Sequence record: NC_008464.1
Length of the DNA: 60,238 nucleotides
Strand: one strand, 5' to 3'
Source: Stx2-converting phage 86
Of the stretch, positions 54,001-57,000 are shown one piece after another. Position numbers: made by a program. Position 1 is the first letter of the stretch; the number at the start of each line of letters is the position of its first letter.

Positions 54001-57000
54001 AAACAGCCAATCGCTTGAGTGAAATCGACATGCTTTACATCGACGACACGCCGGGATTATCTCTGGCTCAAATCGTCAGCGAAAGCCGTCGAATCAAGCG
54101 AGAAAAAGGATGTGTTGGCATGATTCTGGTCGATTACCTGACACTAATGACCGCTGAGAAGGCCGATCGCAACGACCTTGCTTACGGCATGATCACCAAA
54201 GGACTGAAGAACCTTGCCAAAGAGCTTGATTGCGTTGTTGTGCTTCTGACGCAACTTAACCGCGCACTGGAAAGCCGAACCAATAAACGCCCATTACCAA
54301 GTGACTCACGAGATACAGGGCAGATTGAACAGGATTGCGATTATTGGGTGGGGATCCATCGTGAAGGTGCTTTTGATGACAGTGTTCCACCTGGTGAAAC
54401 CGAACTAATCCTTCGTCTCAATCGTCATGGCAATACCGGCACGGTGTATTGCATTCAGGCAAATGGCGCTATTTATGACACAGACCAACAGTCTGCTGAA
54501 ATGCGCCGACGTGAACGCGAGGAACCGCAGTCCAAGAAGAAAGGAGGATTCTGATGAATAAAAAACAATTAGCCATTCTCGAAAAGGCATGGGATGCGCA
54601 AATATCATACGCTTTGAAAGAACAGGCACTACCAATAATCCAGACCAAATCGAAAATAGCCAGGCAGTTATGCGATGACGGATTCCTGAACGAAGTTGAG
54701 ATTACGCACCAGATGGTAACGTTCAAAGGGTATGAGATAAATCATCATGGTATAGCGGCGTATTGCTCCCATCTTCCTGATGACGTTGACATTGATGAAA
54801 TGGAAAGGGAGATGAAGCAATGACCATCTACATCACTGAGCTAATAACAGGCCTGCTGGTAATCGCAGGCCTTTTTATTTGGGGGAGAGTAAATCGTGGC
54901 TGAGTTAATTTTCTCTGCATTGAGGATTCTCGGTGCTATGTGGATGGTGGCGACATTCATTGTTGTTGTCAGCAGTTTTGTCCGGTTGGTAGGCGAAGGT
55001 AAAGACCTGGTGGGTGTGCTTTTCGGTAGCATTCTCCTGTGGGTGATTATCGGTGTTGCGCCTGTTGCTGTAGCAAAAATGGCGTGGCGTTTTGTTAGTT
55101 GAGGTGACGATGAAGCAAATATCACTTCAATAAATCGCTTTTAAGGCATCACAATCGCTCTGTGGTGAGGTAAGCACGTGCAAGGCATGTCGATAGGCAG
55201 CGAGAATGAAAAATGCGTCAGAATGCGTTTGAGGAGGTTTTAAGAAATGAGTACGATAGCTGAGCTTGTCAGGGCTAATTTTCGTGAAGAGTTGGTGCGT
55301 TGGTATCGGTATCGTTCATCGTCCAGTTTGCCGCTTGATGAGTTGTATGAGCACTCACCTGCCGCACGGCGCTATCCGCGTGACCGTGTTCTTCGACGGT
55401 TGTTCAGACTCAATAATGAGTTTCAGCGCAACAGAATTATCCGGAGTCTGGATTTAAAGTGAAGGAGTGAGCATGAGCGAGCAAATATTCAGAGAGATTA
55501 AGCCACGGTTTTATCGCAAGGTAAGGGTGGTTTATCAGGACGAAAACAAGACATGTGCATACGCCATTCATAATGGTCGGTGGTCAGTGTTCGACACCAA
55601 AAACTTCGAGAAGAACTTCGAGAGGATTAAGGGTGATGAGGAAACTAACATTTGAACTAAGAAGCCCCATCCATCAGCAGAACGCCATTCAAGCTATCCA
55701 GCAAATTCTTCCAGACCCAACCAAACCAATCGTAGTAACCATTCAGGAACGCAACCGCAGCATTCGGCAAAATGCACGCCTTCACGCGATGCTATCTGAA
55801 ATAAGTAAGAAGGCTACATATCACGGAAAAGCAAGAAATATTGAGTTTTGGAAGGGGTTATTCGTTTCTGGTTGGCAGATTGCAACCAACCAGCACCCTG
55901 AGATTATATCAGGGTTAGAAGGTGAGCTAATAAACATCAGAGAGAGTACGGCGACTCTATCTGTAAAAAAAATATCCGAAATAATGGACTACATAGAAGC
56001 ATATTGTGCCATGAACTCAATTCATCTTAGCGAATGGAGGAATTATGATTGAGGTTTGGGTAGATATCGAAGGGATTCCATTTTATCAGGTTAGCAATAA
56101 AGGAAATTTCAGGTCTATTACGAGGGAAGTTACAGTAACATCAACCAGACAGAGGCCATATAAGAAAATAATTAATGGCACTAGTGTAAAACCATTCAAG
56201 TGCAAGTCGACAGGATATCTTCAAATAAAGGTATACGGTAAGAAATACAGCGCCCACAGGATAGTTGCGAAAGCATTCTGTACAGGGTTCTGTGATGGCT
56301 TGGTAGTTAATCACAAAAATGGGCGAAGAGATGACAATAGGGCTGATAACCTTGAATGGGTATCACATTCTGAAAACTCAAAACACGGATATAAACAAAA
56401 TGGAAGAATACCTATATCGCTAGGTAAATTTAGTGGTGACCATCCTGCCAGTAAAGCTGTTATTTCTACTGACATGAAAACTGGGGAGGAGGTTTATTAT
56501 GAAGCAGCTATGGATGCTGTCAGAGAAGGATTTGATAGTTCGTCAATTAGTCGTTGCTGTAATGGCGAAAGCTCATATCACAAAGGAAGATTCTGGCGAT
56601 TTGCAAATGAAAAAATGAAAGCGCGATGGGGAGATCGGGCTGCATGACTATCAAATCAAATACGCCAGCACACAACAAGGACTGCTGGCAAACGCCGCTT
56701 TGGCTTTTTGATGCACTGGATATTGAGTTTGGATTCTGGCTGGATTCGGCAGCGAGCGACAAAAATGCTCTGTGTGCTCACTGGCTAACTGAGGCCGACG
56801 ACGCGCTCAATTCTGAGTGGGTAAGCCACGGTGCAATCTGGAATAACCCACCGTACAGCAATATCAGGCCGTGGGTGGAAAAAGCCGCTGAGCAGTGCAT
56901 ACAACAGCGACAGACGGTAGTTATGCTTGTGCCAGAGGATATGTCAGTCGGATGGTTCAGCAAGGCTCTGGAGAGTGTTGACGAAGTTCGCATTATCACT

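What the first reader, a model, noticed from the sequence alone, without database searches (positions are those of the whole stretch)
55636..56647. HNH homing endonuclease gene inserted precisely into the 3' end of ninB
NinB is full length except that its last residues read ...SEWRNYD, while the HNH ORF (own RBS, start at 56045) ends with KARWGDRAA, the recalled lambda NinB C-terminus, including the ATGA overlap with the next gene. The endonuclease therefore sits between ninB codons for EW and KARW, taking over the tail and the translational coupling to the downstream Dam-type methylase gene. This is the footprint of a free-standing homing endonuclease that invaded ninB.
Basis: partly seen in the sequence, partly recalled or inferred. 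Interest (0 to 1): 0.5.

Follow-up and report, generated by a model that had tools for sequence, protein, structure and literature searches.

The report
Homing-type HNH gene nested in ninB
In this Shiga-toxin prophage, most of the recombination gene ninB has been replaced by a block made of a different ninB version plus an HNH nuclease gene. The nuclease gene reads on into the last nine codons of the old ninB, which fits a selfish homing nuclease of a known kind rather than a new system.

Summary
ninB runs 55636-56052. An I-HmuI-like NUMOD4/HNH gene runs 56045-56647. It overlaps the ninB stop by 8 nt and ends in KARWGDRAA with an ATGA overlap onto dam.

The nine tail codons are a true relic: tail plus dam start are base-for-base HK97-type ninB. 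But the HNH gene was not dropped between "EW" and "KARW" of one gene.

About 856 bp (55762-56617) is foreign. It holds the core of a separate NinB subfamily ("NinB'") plus the HNH gene, and it replaces codons 43-137 of a lambda-type ninB. NinB' ends natively near ...WRNYD, and those codons are the HNH ribosome-binding site and start.

NinB' core and HNH are completely linked (77 genomes each of 5,426 E. coli genomes). The block sits between at least 4 different ninB 5' alleles and at least 5 different downstream genes.

Across Proteobacteria this HNH clade sits directly after ninB/orf-family genes. In 19 of 63 distinct C-terminal extensions, the extension is a NinB C-terminal fragment.

Best reading: a free-standing homing endonuclease travelling with its own ninB copy. 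Nuclease activity, target and homing are all untested. This is a new member of a known kind, of moderate interest.

The parts
55636..55761 (+). Lambda-type 5' part of ninB (codons 1-42, ...QERNRS). It includes a 54-nt block (55708-55761) that is near-identical between ninB alleles. This is the left recombination arm.
   Evidence: The alignment with HNH-less EC1515 (same 5' allele), HK97, ETEC1722 and SEN22 shows identity up to ...cgcaaccgcagc and divergence immediately after. At least 4 different 5' alleles join the same core at this point.
55762..56052 (+). Core and native 3' end of a NinB' subfamily gene (codons 43-138 plus stop). Motifs are FWKGLFVSGWQIA and GLEGE(F/L)INIREST. The Orf channel residues Q45, N46, R48 and H50 are present.
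   Evidence: Pfam NinB 2-129/131. Match to 1PC6 at E=5.7e-31. Subfamily alignment. The channel residues are those named in PMC4118853.
56036..56047 (+). Translation start region of the HNH gene: GGAGG (56036-56040), a 4-nt spacer and ATG (56045-56047). It lies inside the last NinB' codons W-R-N-Y.
   Evidence: Read directly from the sequence. The same TATGA-type arrangement occurs in L001, L006-L009, L011, L051, L103 and L104.
56045..56617 (+). Native body of the I-HmuI-like HNH endonuclease gene (codons 1-191). It has NUMOD4, the HNH_3 motif (H90, N102, N111) and a NUMOD-like C-terminal domain.
   Evidence: Pfam PF07463 1.4e-13, PF13392 2.4e-11, PF22083 9e-4. I-HmuI 1U3E at E=3.7e-14. The motif residues are invariant in 25 homologues. 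pN is far below pS against SEN22, L008 and L009.
56618..56647 (+). Relic of the replaced lambda/HK97-type ninB 3' end (codons K138-A146 plus stop), read in frame as the HNH C-terminus KARWGDRAA. It carries the dam Shine-Dalgarno sequence (GGGGAG, 56628-56633) and the ATGA overlap (56644-56647).
   Evidence: It matches the HK97 ninB end and dam start base for base over the stretch printed, and aligns with the ninB ends of HNH-less genomes. Homology to HNH-less phages starts here. Tail variants R/S/K track known ninB alleles.
55762..56617 (+). The whole foreign block (NinB' core plus HNH), about 856 nt. Its length is constant in E. coli and Salmonella copies.
   Evidence: Constant length between different flanks. 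NinB' core and HNH are each found in the same number of genomes and places, 77 genomes and 80 places of 5,426 E. coli genomes.
56644..57171 (+). Phage Dam-family N6-adenine methyltransferase gene. It is a resident neighbour, not part of the block, and is translationally coupled through the relic tail.
   Evidence: PF05869 E=1.9e-64. Present at 96-99% identity directly after ninB in HNH-less phages.

Best explanation
**Structure (shown).** The locus is a composite ninB allele. A block of about 856 bp has replaced codons 43-137 of a lambda/HK97-type ninB. The block carries the core of a different NinB subfamily gene (NinB') and, overlapping its stop codon, a translationally coupled I-HmuI-type NUMOD4-HNH endonuclease gene.

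- The left joint lies in a 54-nt stretch conserved among ninB alleles.
- The right joint lies immediately before lambda codon K138.
- As a result, the resident gene's last nine codons, the dam ribosome-binding site and the ATGA overlap survive, and they are read in frame as the end of the HNH protein.

**Mechanism (inferred).** The HNH protein is a free-standing homing endonuclease whose home is the 3' part of ninB/orf genes. During co-infection, or when a phage meets a resident prophage, it nicks or cuts HNH-less ninB alleles. Recombinational repair then copies in the HNH gene together with its linked NinB' copy. That copy lacks the target and keeps Orf function. This is intronless homing with co-conversion, as recalled for T4 SegF/gene 56.

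The retained ninB tail serves as the right homology arm and keeps the downstream gene expressed.
For: **Composite structure and exact joints**
-.

**Family membership**
- HNH family.
- Catalytic motif residues invariant across 25 diverse homologues.
- Strong long-term purifying selection: pN 0.13-0.23 against saturated pS.

**Linkage and presence/absence**
- NinB' core and HNH show identical counts, 77 genomes and 80 places each, in 5,426 E. coli genomes.
- The same organism classes appear for both in the phage collection.
- About 2,100 further genomes match this region without the block. The HNH-less rows listed carry an uninterrupted ninB next to dam or ninE.

**Mobility of the block**
- The same block sits between at least 4 ninB 5' alleles, all joined after S42.
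- It sits before at least 5 different right-hand neighbours: dam, ninE, ninD, a PAPS-reductase-like gene and a dam hybrid.

**Association with Orf-family genes**
- The HNH clade (about 40% identity or more) lies directly downstream of Orf-family genes (NinB, NinB', DUF1367/YbcN-type) across Proteobacteria.
- HNH and NinB identities co-vary (r=0.86, Mantel p<=5e-4). HNH is nonetheless more conserved than its partner in distant pairs, for example 51% against 18%, which implies transfer between ninB subfamilies.

**Recurrent tails**
- 19 of 63 distinct HNH C-terminal extensions match NinB C-termini at p<=0.01, where 0.6 would be expected.
- The joint falls at different ninB positions. Relative to the upstream NinB there is duplication, exact abutment or a gap. 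This is what repeated repair-type replacement events would give.

**Other points typical of a selfish nuclease gene**
- A second nuclease architecture, HNH_3+AP2, occupies the same position.
- Decayed copies exist: IS insertions in L026, LC616042.1 and L011, and frameshifted clusters P0124, P0125 and P0127.
- No intron RNA family is present.
Against: - No cleavage or nicking activity, target site or biased inheritance has been shown.
- No empty-site NinB' allele (NinB' without an HNH gene) was found in Enterobacterales. The presumed target, lambda-type ninB, is therefore inferred only from the replacement pattern.
- Perfect linkage, deep co-divergence and translational coupling are equally what a functional two-gene module would show.
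- Ordinary lambdoid mosaic recombination at conserved sequences could also move the block without any nuclease.
- The right joint (ATG|AAAGCG against GAATGG|AAAGCG) is not a clean microhomology product.
Confidence: 0.58

Rival explanations
1. Functional partnership. NinB' and the HNH nuclease form a two-gene recombination or host-takeover module, a split counterpart of the Orf-HNH fusion proteins of Gram-positive phages. The nuclease makes nicks or breaks that the Orf-type mediator channels into RecA or Red recombination. The NinB-derived tail could help the nuclease dock on NinB', SSB or ssDNA.
For: - Identical NinB' and HNH counts in E. coli genomes.
- Conserved overlapping start/stop arrangement across NinB' at 48-100% identity.
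- Co-divergence and purifying selection on the HNH gene.
- In-frame NinB tails recur in many lineages.
- Precedent for Orf-HNH fusions: PMC4118853, PMC2034487 and the RecA-dependent nuclease Gp16 of phage PhiNM1, PMC12817073.
- The lambda Orf C-terminal helices contribute to DNA binding (PMC4118853).
Against: - The HNH here is an I-HmuI/NUMOD4 type typical of homing endonucleases. No DUF968 match was reported for either protein.
- Many pairs lack any NinB tail, for example SEN22, L008 and L051.
- Tails also occur on HNH genes whose upstream gene gave no match to the NinB profile (L139 and L140). By eye, the L139 upstream ORF resembles the DUF1367 protein of L002.
- Tails duplicate or skip parts of the upstream NinB instead of completing it.
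- Two unrelated nuclease architectures share the site.
- Many NinB' genes (L052-L099, L105) and the lambda-type ninB genes examined here work without a neighbouring HNH of this family.
- IS-disrupted and frameshifted copies persist.
Confidence: 0.22
2. The HNH ORF, with its own ribosome-binding site, was inserted precisely between the EW and KARW codons of a single ninB gene. The upstream gene would then be that same ninB, truncated by nine codons.
For: - The right junction lies exactly before the K138 codon.
- GAATGG occurs just before the insert on the left and just before AAAGCG in intact ninB.
- One NinB'-core protein with a lambda-like long tail exists (P0021...KKWSARWGA). In L006 the upstream NinB' and the HNH tail abut collinearly.
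Against: - The sequence upstream of the putative site is not the same allele as the tail. From codon 43 it diverges from lambda-type ninB, while the tail is base-for-base HK97-type.
- SEN22 has the same ...SEWRNYE end with an HNH ending ...ERMAA and no KARW.
- WRxYD-type ends also occur with AP2-type HNH genes.
- NinB' without an HNH gene is equally short (P0023, P0024; L105).
- Collinear alignment places NinB' SEW opposite lambda S128-E130.
Confidence: 0.07
3. Passive mosaicism. The block is an ordinary lambdoid mosaic module moved by general or Red-type recombination at conserved sequences. The HNH gene would be an inactive or irrelevant passenger, and the in-frame tail an accident kept because it preserves dam expression.
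For: - The left joint sits in a conserved 54-nt block that would favour homologous exchange.
- Flanks reassort freely.
- The block is rare, in 1.4% of E. coli genomes.
Against: - The HNH gene is under strong long-term purifying selection with invariant catalytic residues.
- The same nuclease clade is found after ninB-family genes across Proteobacteria, with independent tail fusions.
- A second nuclease family occupies the same site.
- These patterns are hard to explain for an inert passenger.
Confidence: 0.1

Closest known systems
I-HmuI and related NUMOD/HNH homing endonucleases (PDB 1U3E)
   Same: The HNH_3 catalytic motif and C-terminal DNA-binding region align over residues 55-186 against 36-170 of 174 (E=3.7e-14). 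A NUMOD4 N-terminal module is present.
   Different: From memory, I-HmuI is encoded inside a group I intron. Here no intron RNA is detected, and the ORF overlaps its neighbours' stop and start codons. It carries 9 extra C-terminal residues derived from ninB. Activity is untested.
Intronless homing and marker exclusion by free-standing T4 endonucleases (SegF/gene 56, SegG/gene 32).
   Same: A free-standing nuclease gene is linked to its own, presumably resistant, version of the neighbouring gene. Acquisition replaces the recipient's version together with the nuclease gene.
   Different: Here the replaced gene's last 9 codons survive as an in-frame extension of the nuclease. The host is a temperate lambdoid prophage. 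Cleavage and biased inheritance are not demonstrated.
Genes split by homing endonuclease insertion, for example nrdD in the FelixO1-like phage UAB_Phi87 (PMC4837284), and nrdA/mobE in Aeromonas phage Aeh1 (from memory)
   Same: An endonuclease gene lies inside the coding region of a DNA-metabolism gene and leaves host-gene fragments on both sides.
   Different: The downstream fragment is only 9 codons and is fused to the nuclease rather than translated separately. The upstream gene is a complete copy from another subfamily, not the 5' half of the same gene.
Orf(NinB)-HNH fusion proteins of Gram-positive phages (DUF968; phiETA Orf20; PhiNM1 Gp16)
   Same: An Orf-family recombination mediator is associated with an HNH nuclease in the same gene order (PMC4118853, PMC2034487, PMC12817073).
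   Different: Those are single polypeptides with a zinc-finger HNH domain. Here there are two ORFs separated by a stop codon, the HNH is I-HmuI-type with NUMOD4, and no DUF968 match was reported for either protein.

Membership tests
I-HmuI-like NUMOD4/HNH_3 endonucleases | NUMOD4 plus HNH_3 domain architecture, above the Pfam gathering scores | tested here: met
   PF07463 51.3 bits (cut-off 23.4) and PF13392 43.5 bits (cut-off 24.8). PF22083, the I-HmuI NUMOD-like domain, scores 19.2 bits, below its cut-off of 27.
I-HmuI-like NUMOD4/HNH_3 endonucleases | Sequence homology to the solved I-HmuI structure, with catalytic His/Asn motif residues conserved | tested here: met
   1U3E at E=3.7e-14. 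VVNH90...DN102LEW...SEN111 aligns with the I-HmuI VVDH...TNLRW...KIN. The equivalent columns are invariant in 25 homologues.
Homing endonuclease (functional class) | Site-specific nicking or cleavage of the endonuclease-free allele | not testable with these tools
   Needs purified protein and ninB DNA substrates.
Homing endonuclease (functional class) | Presence/absence polymorphism at a homologous site in related genomes | tested here: met
   The block is in 77 of 5,426 E. coli genomes. HNH-less ninB genes with the same 5' allele, tail and dam exist, for example EC1515. However, no NinB' allele without an HNH gene was found in Enterobacterales.
Homing endonuclease (functional class) | Nuclease-dependent biased (super-Mendelian) inheritance | not testable with these tools
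   Needs phage crosses with a catalytic mutant as control.
NinB/Orf recombination mediators (PF05772) | NinB domain and homology to the lambda Orf structure, with conserved channel residues | tested here: met
   PF05772 E=2.5e-40. 1PC6 E=5.7e-31. R41, Q45, N46, R48 and H50 are present; these are the residues named in PMC4118853.
NinB/Orf recombination mediators (PF05772) | Lambda-type C-terminal helix (...ARLALEW137KARWGDRAA) on the NinB polypeptide | tested here: not met
   NinB' ends at ...SEWRNYD, about 8 residues shorter than lambda Orf, as do HNH-less members of its subfamily. The last 9 lambda-type residues are on the HNH protein instead.
Orf-HNH fusion proteins (DUF968 type) | Orf domain and HNH domain in a single polypeptide | tested here: not met
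   A stop codon at 56050-56052 separates the ORFs. The HNH frame is +1 relative to ninB. No DUF968 match was reported for either protein.
Intron-encoded endonuclease | The ORF lies inside a self-splicing intron | tested here: not met
   No Rfam match at E<=1 in 55000-57600. The ORF overlaps the coding ends of both neighbours, leaving no room for intron RNA.
Genes-in-pieces (endonuclease-split host gene) | The two host-gene fragments are complementary halves of one gene, translated separately | tested here: not met
   The upstream part is a complete NinB' of another subfamily. The downstream 9 codons are lambda-type and fused to the HNH. In relatives the two parts overlap or leave gaps.

The most novel reading that the evidence does not exclude
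The NinB'-HNH pair may be a working two-protein unit rather than host gene plus parasite. On this reading it is a split, Gram-negative counterpart of the Orf-HNH fusion nucleases such as the RecA-dependent Gp16 of PhiNM1. The C-terminal NinB fragments that recur in frame on the nuclease would then tether it to the Orf ring, SSB or ssDNA. Break-making and recombination-mediator loading would be coupled, either for the phage's own recombination or for attacking competitor and host DNA.
Probability: 0.15. Interest if true: 0.7.

Novelty: new member of a known kind. Interest (0 to 1): 0.4.

Why it matters
- **Annotation.** Public records call this gene only "HNH endonuclease" or "NUMOD4 domain-containing protein". 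The analysis shows the locus is a composite ninB allele with defined joints.
- **A recurrent home for nuclease genes.** The 3' part of ninB/orf appears to be a repeated landing place for HNH nuclease genes in temperate phages of Proteobacteria, and these genes often keep an in-frame fossil of the gene they displaced. My searches of the available paper library found no description of this pattern.
- **A testable case in temperate phages.** If the nuclease is active, this is a tractable example of homing-type gene drive among lambdoid and Shiga-toxin prophages. It would be one concrete mechanism behind mosaic exchange in the nin region.
- **A link to known Orf-HNH fusions.** The strict pairing of a nuclease with a recombination mediator also invites a direct test of whether the two cooperate, as the Orf-HNH fusion proteins of Gram-positive phages suggest.

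Tried and rejected
1. **Full-length NinB HMM against the 120 HNH homologues.** C-terminal hits fell at the right HMM positions, but their E-values (9-27) were no better than for reversed sequences. The model is dominated by short-tailed NinB'. I replaced it with the shuffle test.
2. **Frame-bias test for out-of-frame NinB fossils downstream of HNH genes.** This was inconclusive. All convincing tail hits were in frame. The +1-frame hits came from frameshifted NinB read-through proteins (P0070, P0072, P0076, P0078) that contaminated the comparison set, and sensitivity for short fossils is low.
3. **Small HMM of lambda-type tails.** The L007 HNH-AP2 tail was the best non-NinB hit among 11,873 ORFs (E=3e-3). 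L006 was not recovered, so that case is suggestive only.
4. **Search for an empty-site NinB' without an HNH gene.** None was found in Enterobacterales or in E. coli genomes.
5. **Group I intron or other RNA.** None was found.
6. **Packaging-type HNH (HK97 gp74-like), from memory.** Rejected because of the position in the nin region and the different domain family.
7. **Programmed frameshift fusing NinB' to the HNH.** No slippery sequence is evident at the overlap. I did not pursue this.
8. **Literature searches.** The terms were ninB+HNH, ninB+homing endonuclease, NUMOD4+lambdoid and Lahn2/Nil2. They returned only the Orf-HNH fusion papers, and nothing on this arrangement.
9. **Recent dN/dS among E. 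coli alleles (0.77).** It rests on a handful of changes and is not informative.
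Full report
**1. What is in the sequence**

The window is 100% identical over 55400-57400 to an Stx2 prophage of E. coli JE86-ST02 (NZ_AP022811.1). RefSeq annotates the region there as NinB, a "NUMOD4 domain-containing protein", a phage N6-adenine methyltransferase and NinE.

- **ninB** starts at ATG 55636 and stops at 56050-56052 (138 aa, ...IHLSEWRNYD).
- **The HNH ORF** starts at ATG 56045, 4 nt after GGAGG (56036-56040), and stops at 56645-56647 (200 aa, ...RFWRFANEKMKARWGDRAA).
- **dam** starts at 56644, giving an ATGA overlap.
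- **Pfam** gives NinB (E=2.5e-40), NUMOD4 plus HNH_3 (1.4e-13 and 2.4e-11, with a sub-threshold I-HmuI NUMOD-like match), Dam (1.9e-64) and NinE.
- **Closest solved structures** are I-HmuI for the HNH protein (1U3E, E=3.7e-14, residues 55-186 against 36-170 of 174) and lambda Orf for NinB (1PC6, E=5.7e-31).
- No RNA family, and so no intron, is detectable.

**2. The tail is a true ninB relic**

From 56618 onward (AAAGCGCGATGGGGAGATCGGGCTGCATGA and the start of dam), the window matches the HK97 ninB 3' end and dam start base for base over the stretch printed. Lambda_2E9 differs there by one base. BLAST homology of HNH-less lambda/HK97-type phages to the window begins at about 56614-56617. That of 933W/Sakai-type phages, which have another ninB end, begins at about 56637.

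The right junction is thus exactly before lambda codon K138. The relic also holds the dam Shine-Dalgarno sequence (GGGGAG, 56628-56633).

**3. The HNH gene is not simply inserted into this ninB**

A nucleotide alignment was made with two HNH-less genes (E. coli EC1515, which has the same ninB 5' allele, and HK97) and two other HNH-bearing loci (ETEC1722 and Salmonella phage SEN22).

- All sequences are near-identical through ...CGCAACCGCAGC, the codon for S42 (55759-55761).
- HNH-bearing and HNH-less sequences then diverge completely until the tail.
- The foreign segment is therefore 55762-56617, about 856 nt. It replaces codons 43-137 of a lambda-type ninB.

Its first part encodes the core of a distinct NinB subfamily, here called NinB'. 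Its motifs are FWKGLFVSGWQIA and GLEGE(F/L)INIREST, and it is about 45% identical to lambda Orf over the whole protein.

NinB' ends natively at about this length.
- HNH-less members of the subfamily end 6-10 residues after the (I/V)x(L/F) motif, for example ...IRLSAPEDAWA and ...IKFSAAEWEDYSF. The latter is followed by ninG.
- SEN22 has the same end (...SEWRNYE), although its HNH ends ...ERMAA with no KARW and is followed by ninD.
- The last NinB' codons, TGG AGG AAT TAT GAT TGA, are the HNH Shine-Dalgarno sequence, spacer and ATG.
- The same TATGA-type overlap is found in every HNH-bearing relative examined.
- If the alignment continues collinearly, NinB' S132-E133-W134 fall opposite lambda S128-D129-E130.

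**4. The block behaves as a unit**

- In the phage collection the NinB' core occurs in 63 records. The HNH occurs in the same organism classes, plus a few weak distant hits.
- In 5,426 complete E. coli genomes the NinB' core and the HNH body are each found in 77 genomes and 80 places. No surplus of either was seen.
- About 2,100 further genomes match this region without the block, and the HNH-less rows listed carry an uninterrupted ninB.
- The block has constant length. It is flanked on the left by at least four different ninB 5' alleles, all joined after S42.
- After the nine-codon tail it is followed by at least five different neighbours: dam, ninE, ninD, a PAPS-reductase-like gene and a dam hybrid. 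The common left and right types occur in all combinations. Some loci are duplicates of the same contigs, so I rely only on the distinct contexts and not on the counts.
- Tail variants (KARWGD-R/S/K-AA) match alleles of HNH-less ninB.

**5. The pattern is general**

Every enterobacterial NinB' at 54% identity or more has an HNH gene starting inside its last codons.
- Some are the NUMOD4 type: SEN22, L008, Yersinia L009, and the IS1-disrupted copy in Mixta L011. Two further pairs, L103 and L106, come from metagenome assemblies labelled Acinetobacter and Pantoea.
- Others are a different HNH_3+AP2 type: L006, L007 and L051.
- A 48%-identical NinB' (L104) also has a NUMOD4-type HNH gene, while a 53-58%-identical one (L105) has none.

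In IMG/VR, HNH homologues down to about 36-40% identity mostly lie directly after a NinB-family gene. More distant ones do not.

In the Enterobacter phage L002, the upstream gene matches DUF1367. By eye, the L139 upstream ORF resembles it. My recollection is that DUF1367 is the YbcN group, which PMC4118853 places in the Orf family, but I did not check that equivalence here.

NinB and HNH identities co-vary (r=0.86, Mantel p<=5e-4). The HNH is nonetheless much better conserved than its partner in distant pairs, for example 51% against 18% and 58% against 32%. This indicates movement between ninB subfamilies.

The HNH is under strong long-term purifying selection: pN is 0.13-0.23 while pS is saturated. 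Its motif residues are invariant.

**6. Recurrent NinB-tail fusions**

Many homologues carry a NinB C-terminal fragment after their native end (HKGxxWRF). Examples:
- P0135: ...SDASRLEIEWATRWGKS
- P0210: ...GTEHGVKWADEAKAA
- P0190: ...HAFGTQRGVEWSPTSLGRAA
- P0206...CDAHGVQLTETIKGGFHDPRARAA

In a shuffle test of 63 distinct extensions against 139 NinB C-termini, 19 reached p<=0.01 where 0.6 would be expected, and 23 reached p<=0.05 where 3.2 would be expected.

The AP2-type proteins of L006 and L007 also end in a lambda-like NinB tail (...AIDWARRFGETKRAA). Support for L007 is E=3e-3 among 11,873 ORFs.

Where the loci could be read, the upstream NinB is nearly full length and the tail comes from another allele. 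The geometry varies:
- Duplication in L186: upstream ...AFGAEHDVKWGEAT*, tail F|GTEHGVKWADEAKAA.
- Duplication in L184.
- Exact abutment in L006.
- A gap in the window.

Variable joints argue for repeated replacement events with a non-homologous right end, not for one precise insertion site.

**7. Mechanism**

*Shown:* the composite structure, the joints, family membership, linkage, mobility between contexts, and the recurrence of tails.

*Inferred:* the HNH protein is an active free-standing homing endonuclease. It nicks or cuts HNH-less ninB, and its gene is then copied in by recombinational repair together with the linked NinB'. NinB' lacks the target and preserves Orf function. The retained tail serves as the right homology arm and preserves expression of the next gene.

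- This matches intronless homing, as recalled for T4 SegF and SegG.
- Decayed copies fit a selfish element: IS insertions in L026, LC616042.1 and L011, and the frameshifted clusters P0124, P0125 and P0127.
- Confidence is about 0.58, because no activity, target or biased inheritance is known.

**8. Rivals**

- **Functional pair (about 0.22).** A genuine NinB'-HNH functional pair remains plausible. It is suggested by the perfect linkage, the translational coupling, and the known Orf-HNH fusions of Gram-positive phages (PMC4118853, PMC2034487), including the RecA-dependent nuclease Gp16 (PMC12817073). It is weakened by tail-less pairs, by tails on HNH genes with no NinB-profile match upstream, by non-complementary joints, and by two unrelated nuclease architectures at one site.
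- **Literal simple insertion (about 0.07).** This is largely refuted here.
- **Passive mosaicism with an inert passenger (about 0.10).** This fits poorly with the selection on the HNH gene and with its recurrence.

**9. Novelty**

The gene is already annotated generically in public records. Free-standing HNH homing endonucleases and co-conversion of a linked gene are known concepts, so this is a new member of a known kind.

What I did not find described in the searchable literature is twofold: the tight association of this HNH clade with the 3' end of ninB/orf genes, and the recurrent in-frame NinB fossils. That is a modest but testable addition.

Noticed in passing
window 55965-55972; L046 and L048 (ninB' ORF ends early at ...SVKKYPK): An A8 run inside ninB' (GTAAAAAAAATATCC). 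Two IMG/VR copies are one base shorter there, which frameshifts ninB'. This could be sequencing error or slippage-prone inactivation.
   Followed up: partly
L026 (HNH split at 3377-3574 and 4517-5209); LC616042.1 (HNH hit in two places); L011 (Mixta): Some copies of the HNH gene are interrupted by an insertion of about 1.2 kb. In Mixta the insert encodes IS1 InsA-like protein. The nuclease is therefore dispensable in at least some prophages.
   Followed up: partly
window 55473-55655 (+): A 60-aa ORF with a strong AAGGAG ribosome-binding site matches phrog_9493 at E=2.5e-47. It overlaps the ninB start by 20 nt. It is not annotated in the identical RefSeq record. It lies inside the larger stretch (about 55481-56636) that differs from 933W/Sakai-type Stx phages.
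   Followed up: partly
L006 2910-3458, L007 2910-3461, L051 from 3410: A second, unrelated nuclease architecture (HNH_3 plus AP2 DNA-binding domain) occupies the same position after NinB', using the same TGGAG..TATGA start region. In L006 and L007 it ends in a lambda-like NinB tail.
   Followed up: partly
window 56626-57171 (+1 frame of the ninB tail); proteins P0070, P0072, P0076, P0078: The +1 frame of the ninB tail runs straight into the dam (or ninE) reading frame. Public protein sets contain NinB read-through or fusion products created by frameshifts there. A crossover at the ATGG shared by the HNH end and GAATGGAAA would have fused the HNH to Dam. The window has one G fewer, which restores the stop.
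   Followed up: no
window 59897-60148: Three tRNA genes are present: anticodons CAT, TCG (Arg) and TCT (Arg). The CAT one is annotated tRNA-Ile in RefSeq. They lie downstream of the Q antiterminator. In the identical RefSeq record, stx2A starts just beyond the window end.
   Followed up: partly
L100 844-1455; L001 3530-3811; L003 3123-3413: Other HNH endonuclease genes sit elsewhere in the same nin regions. One lies upstream of ninB' in ETEC1722. Small HNH genes lie next to rusA in SEN22 and HK97. The nin region may therefore be generally rich in nuclease genes.
   Followed up: no
(E. coli genomes): Within E. coli the NinB' core is at least 99% identical in all 77 genomes, while the HNH body is 95-99% identical in 20 of them. 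The nuclease gene is thus the more variable half of the block at short range.
   Followed up: no
L184 4541 onward: A 780-aa DnaB-like helicase has a weak Hom_end_hint (intein) Pfam hit in the same contig as a NinB-HNH pair. This may be a second mobile nuclease element in that phage.
   Followed up: no
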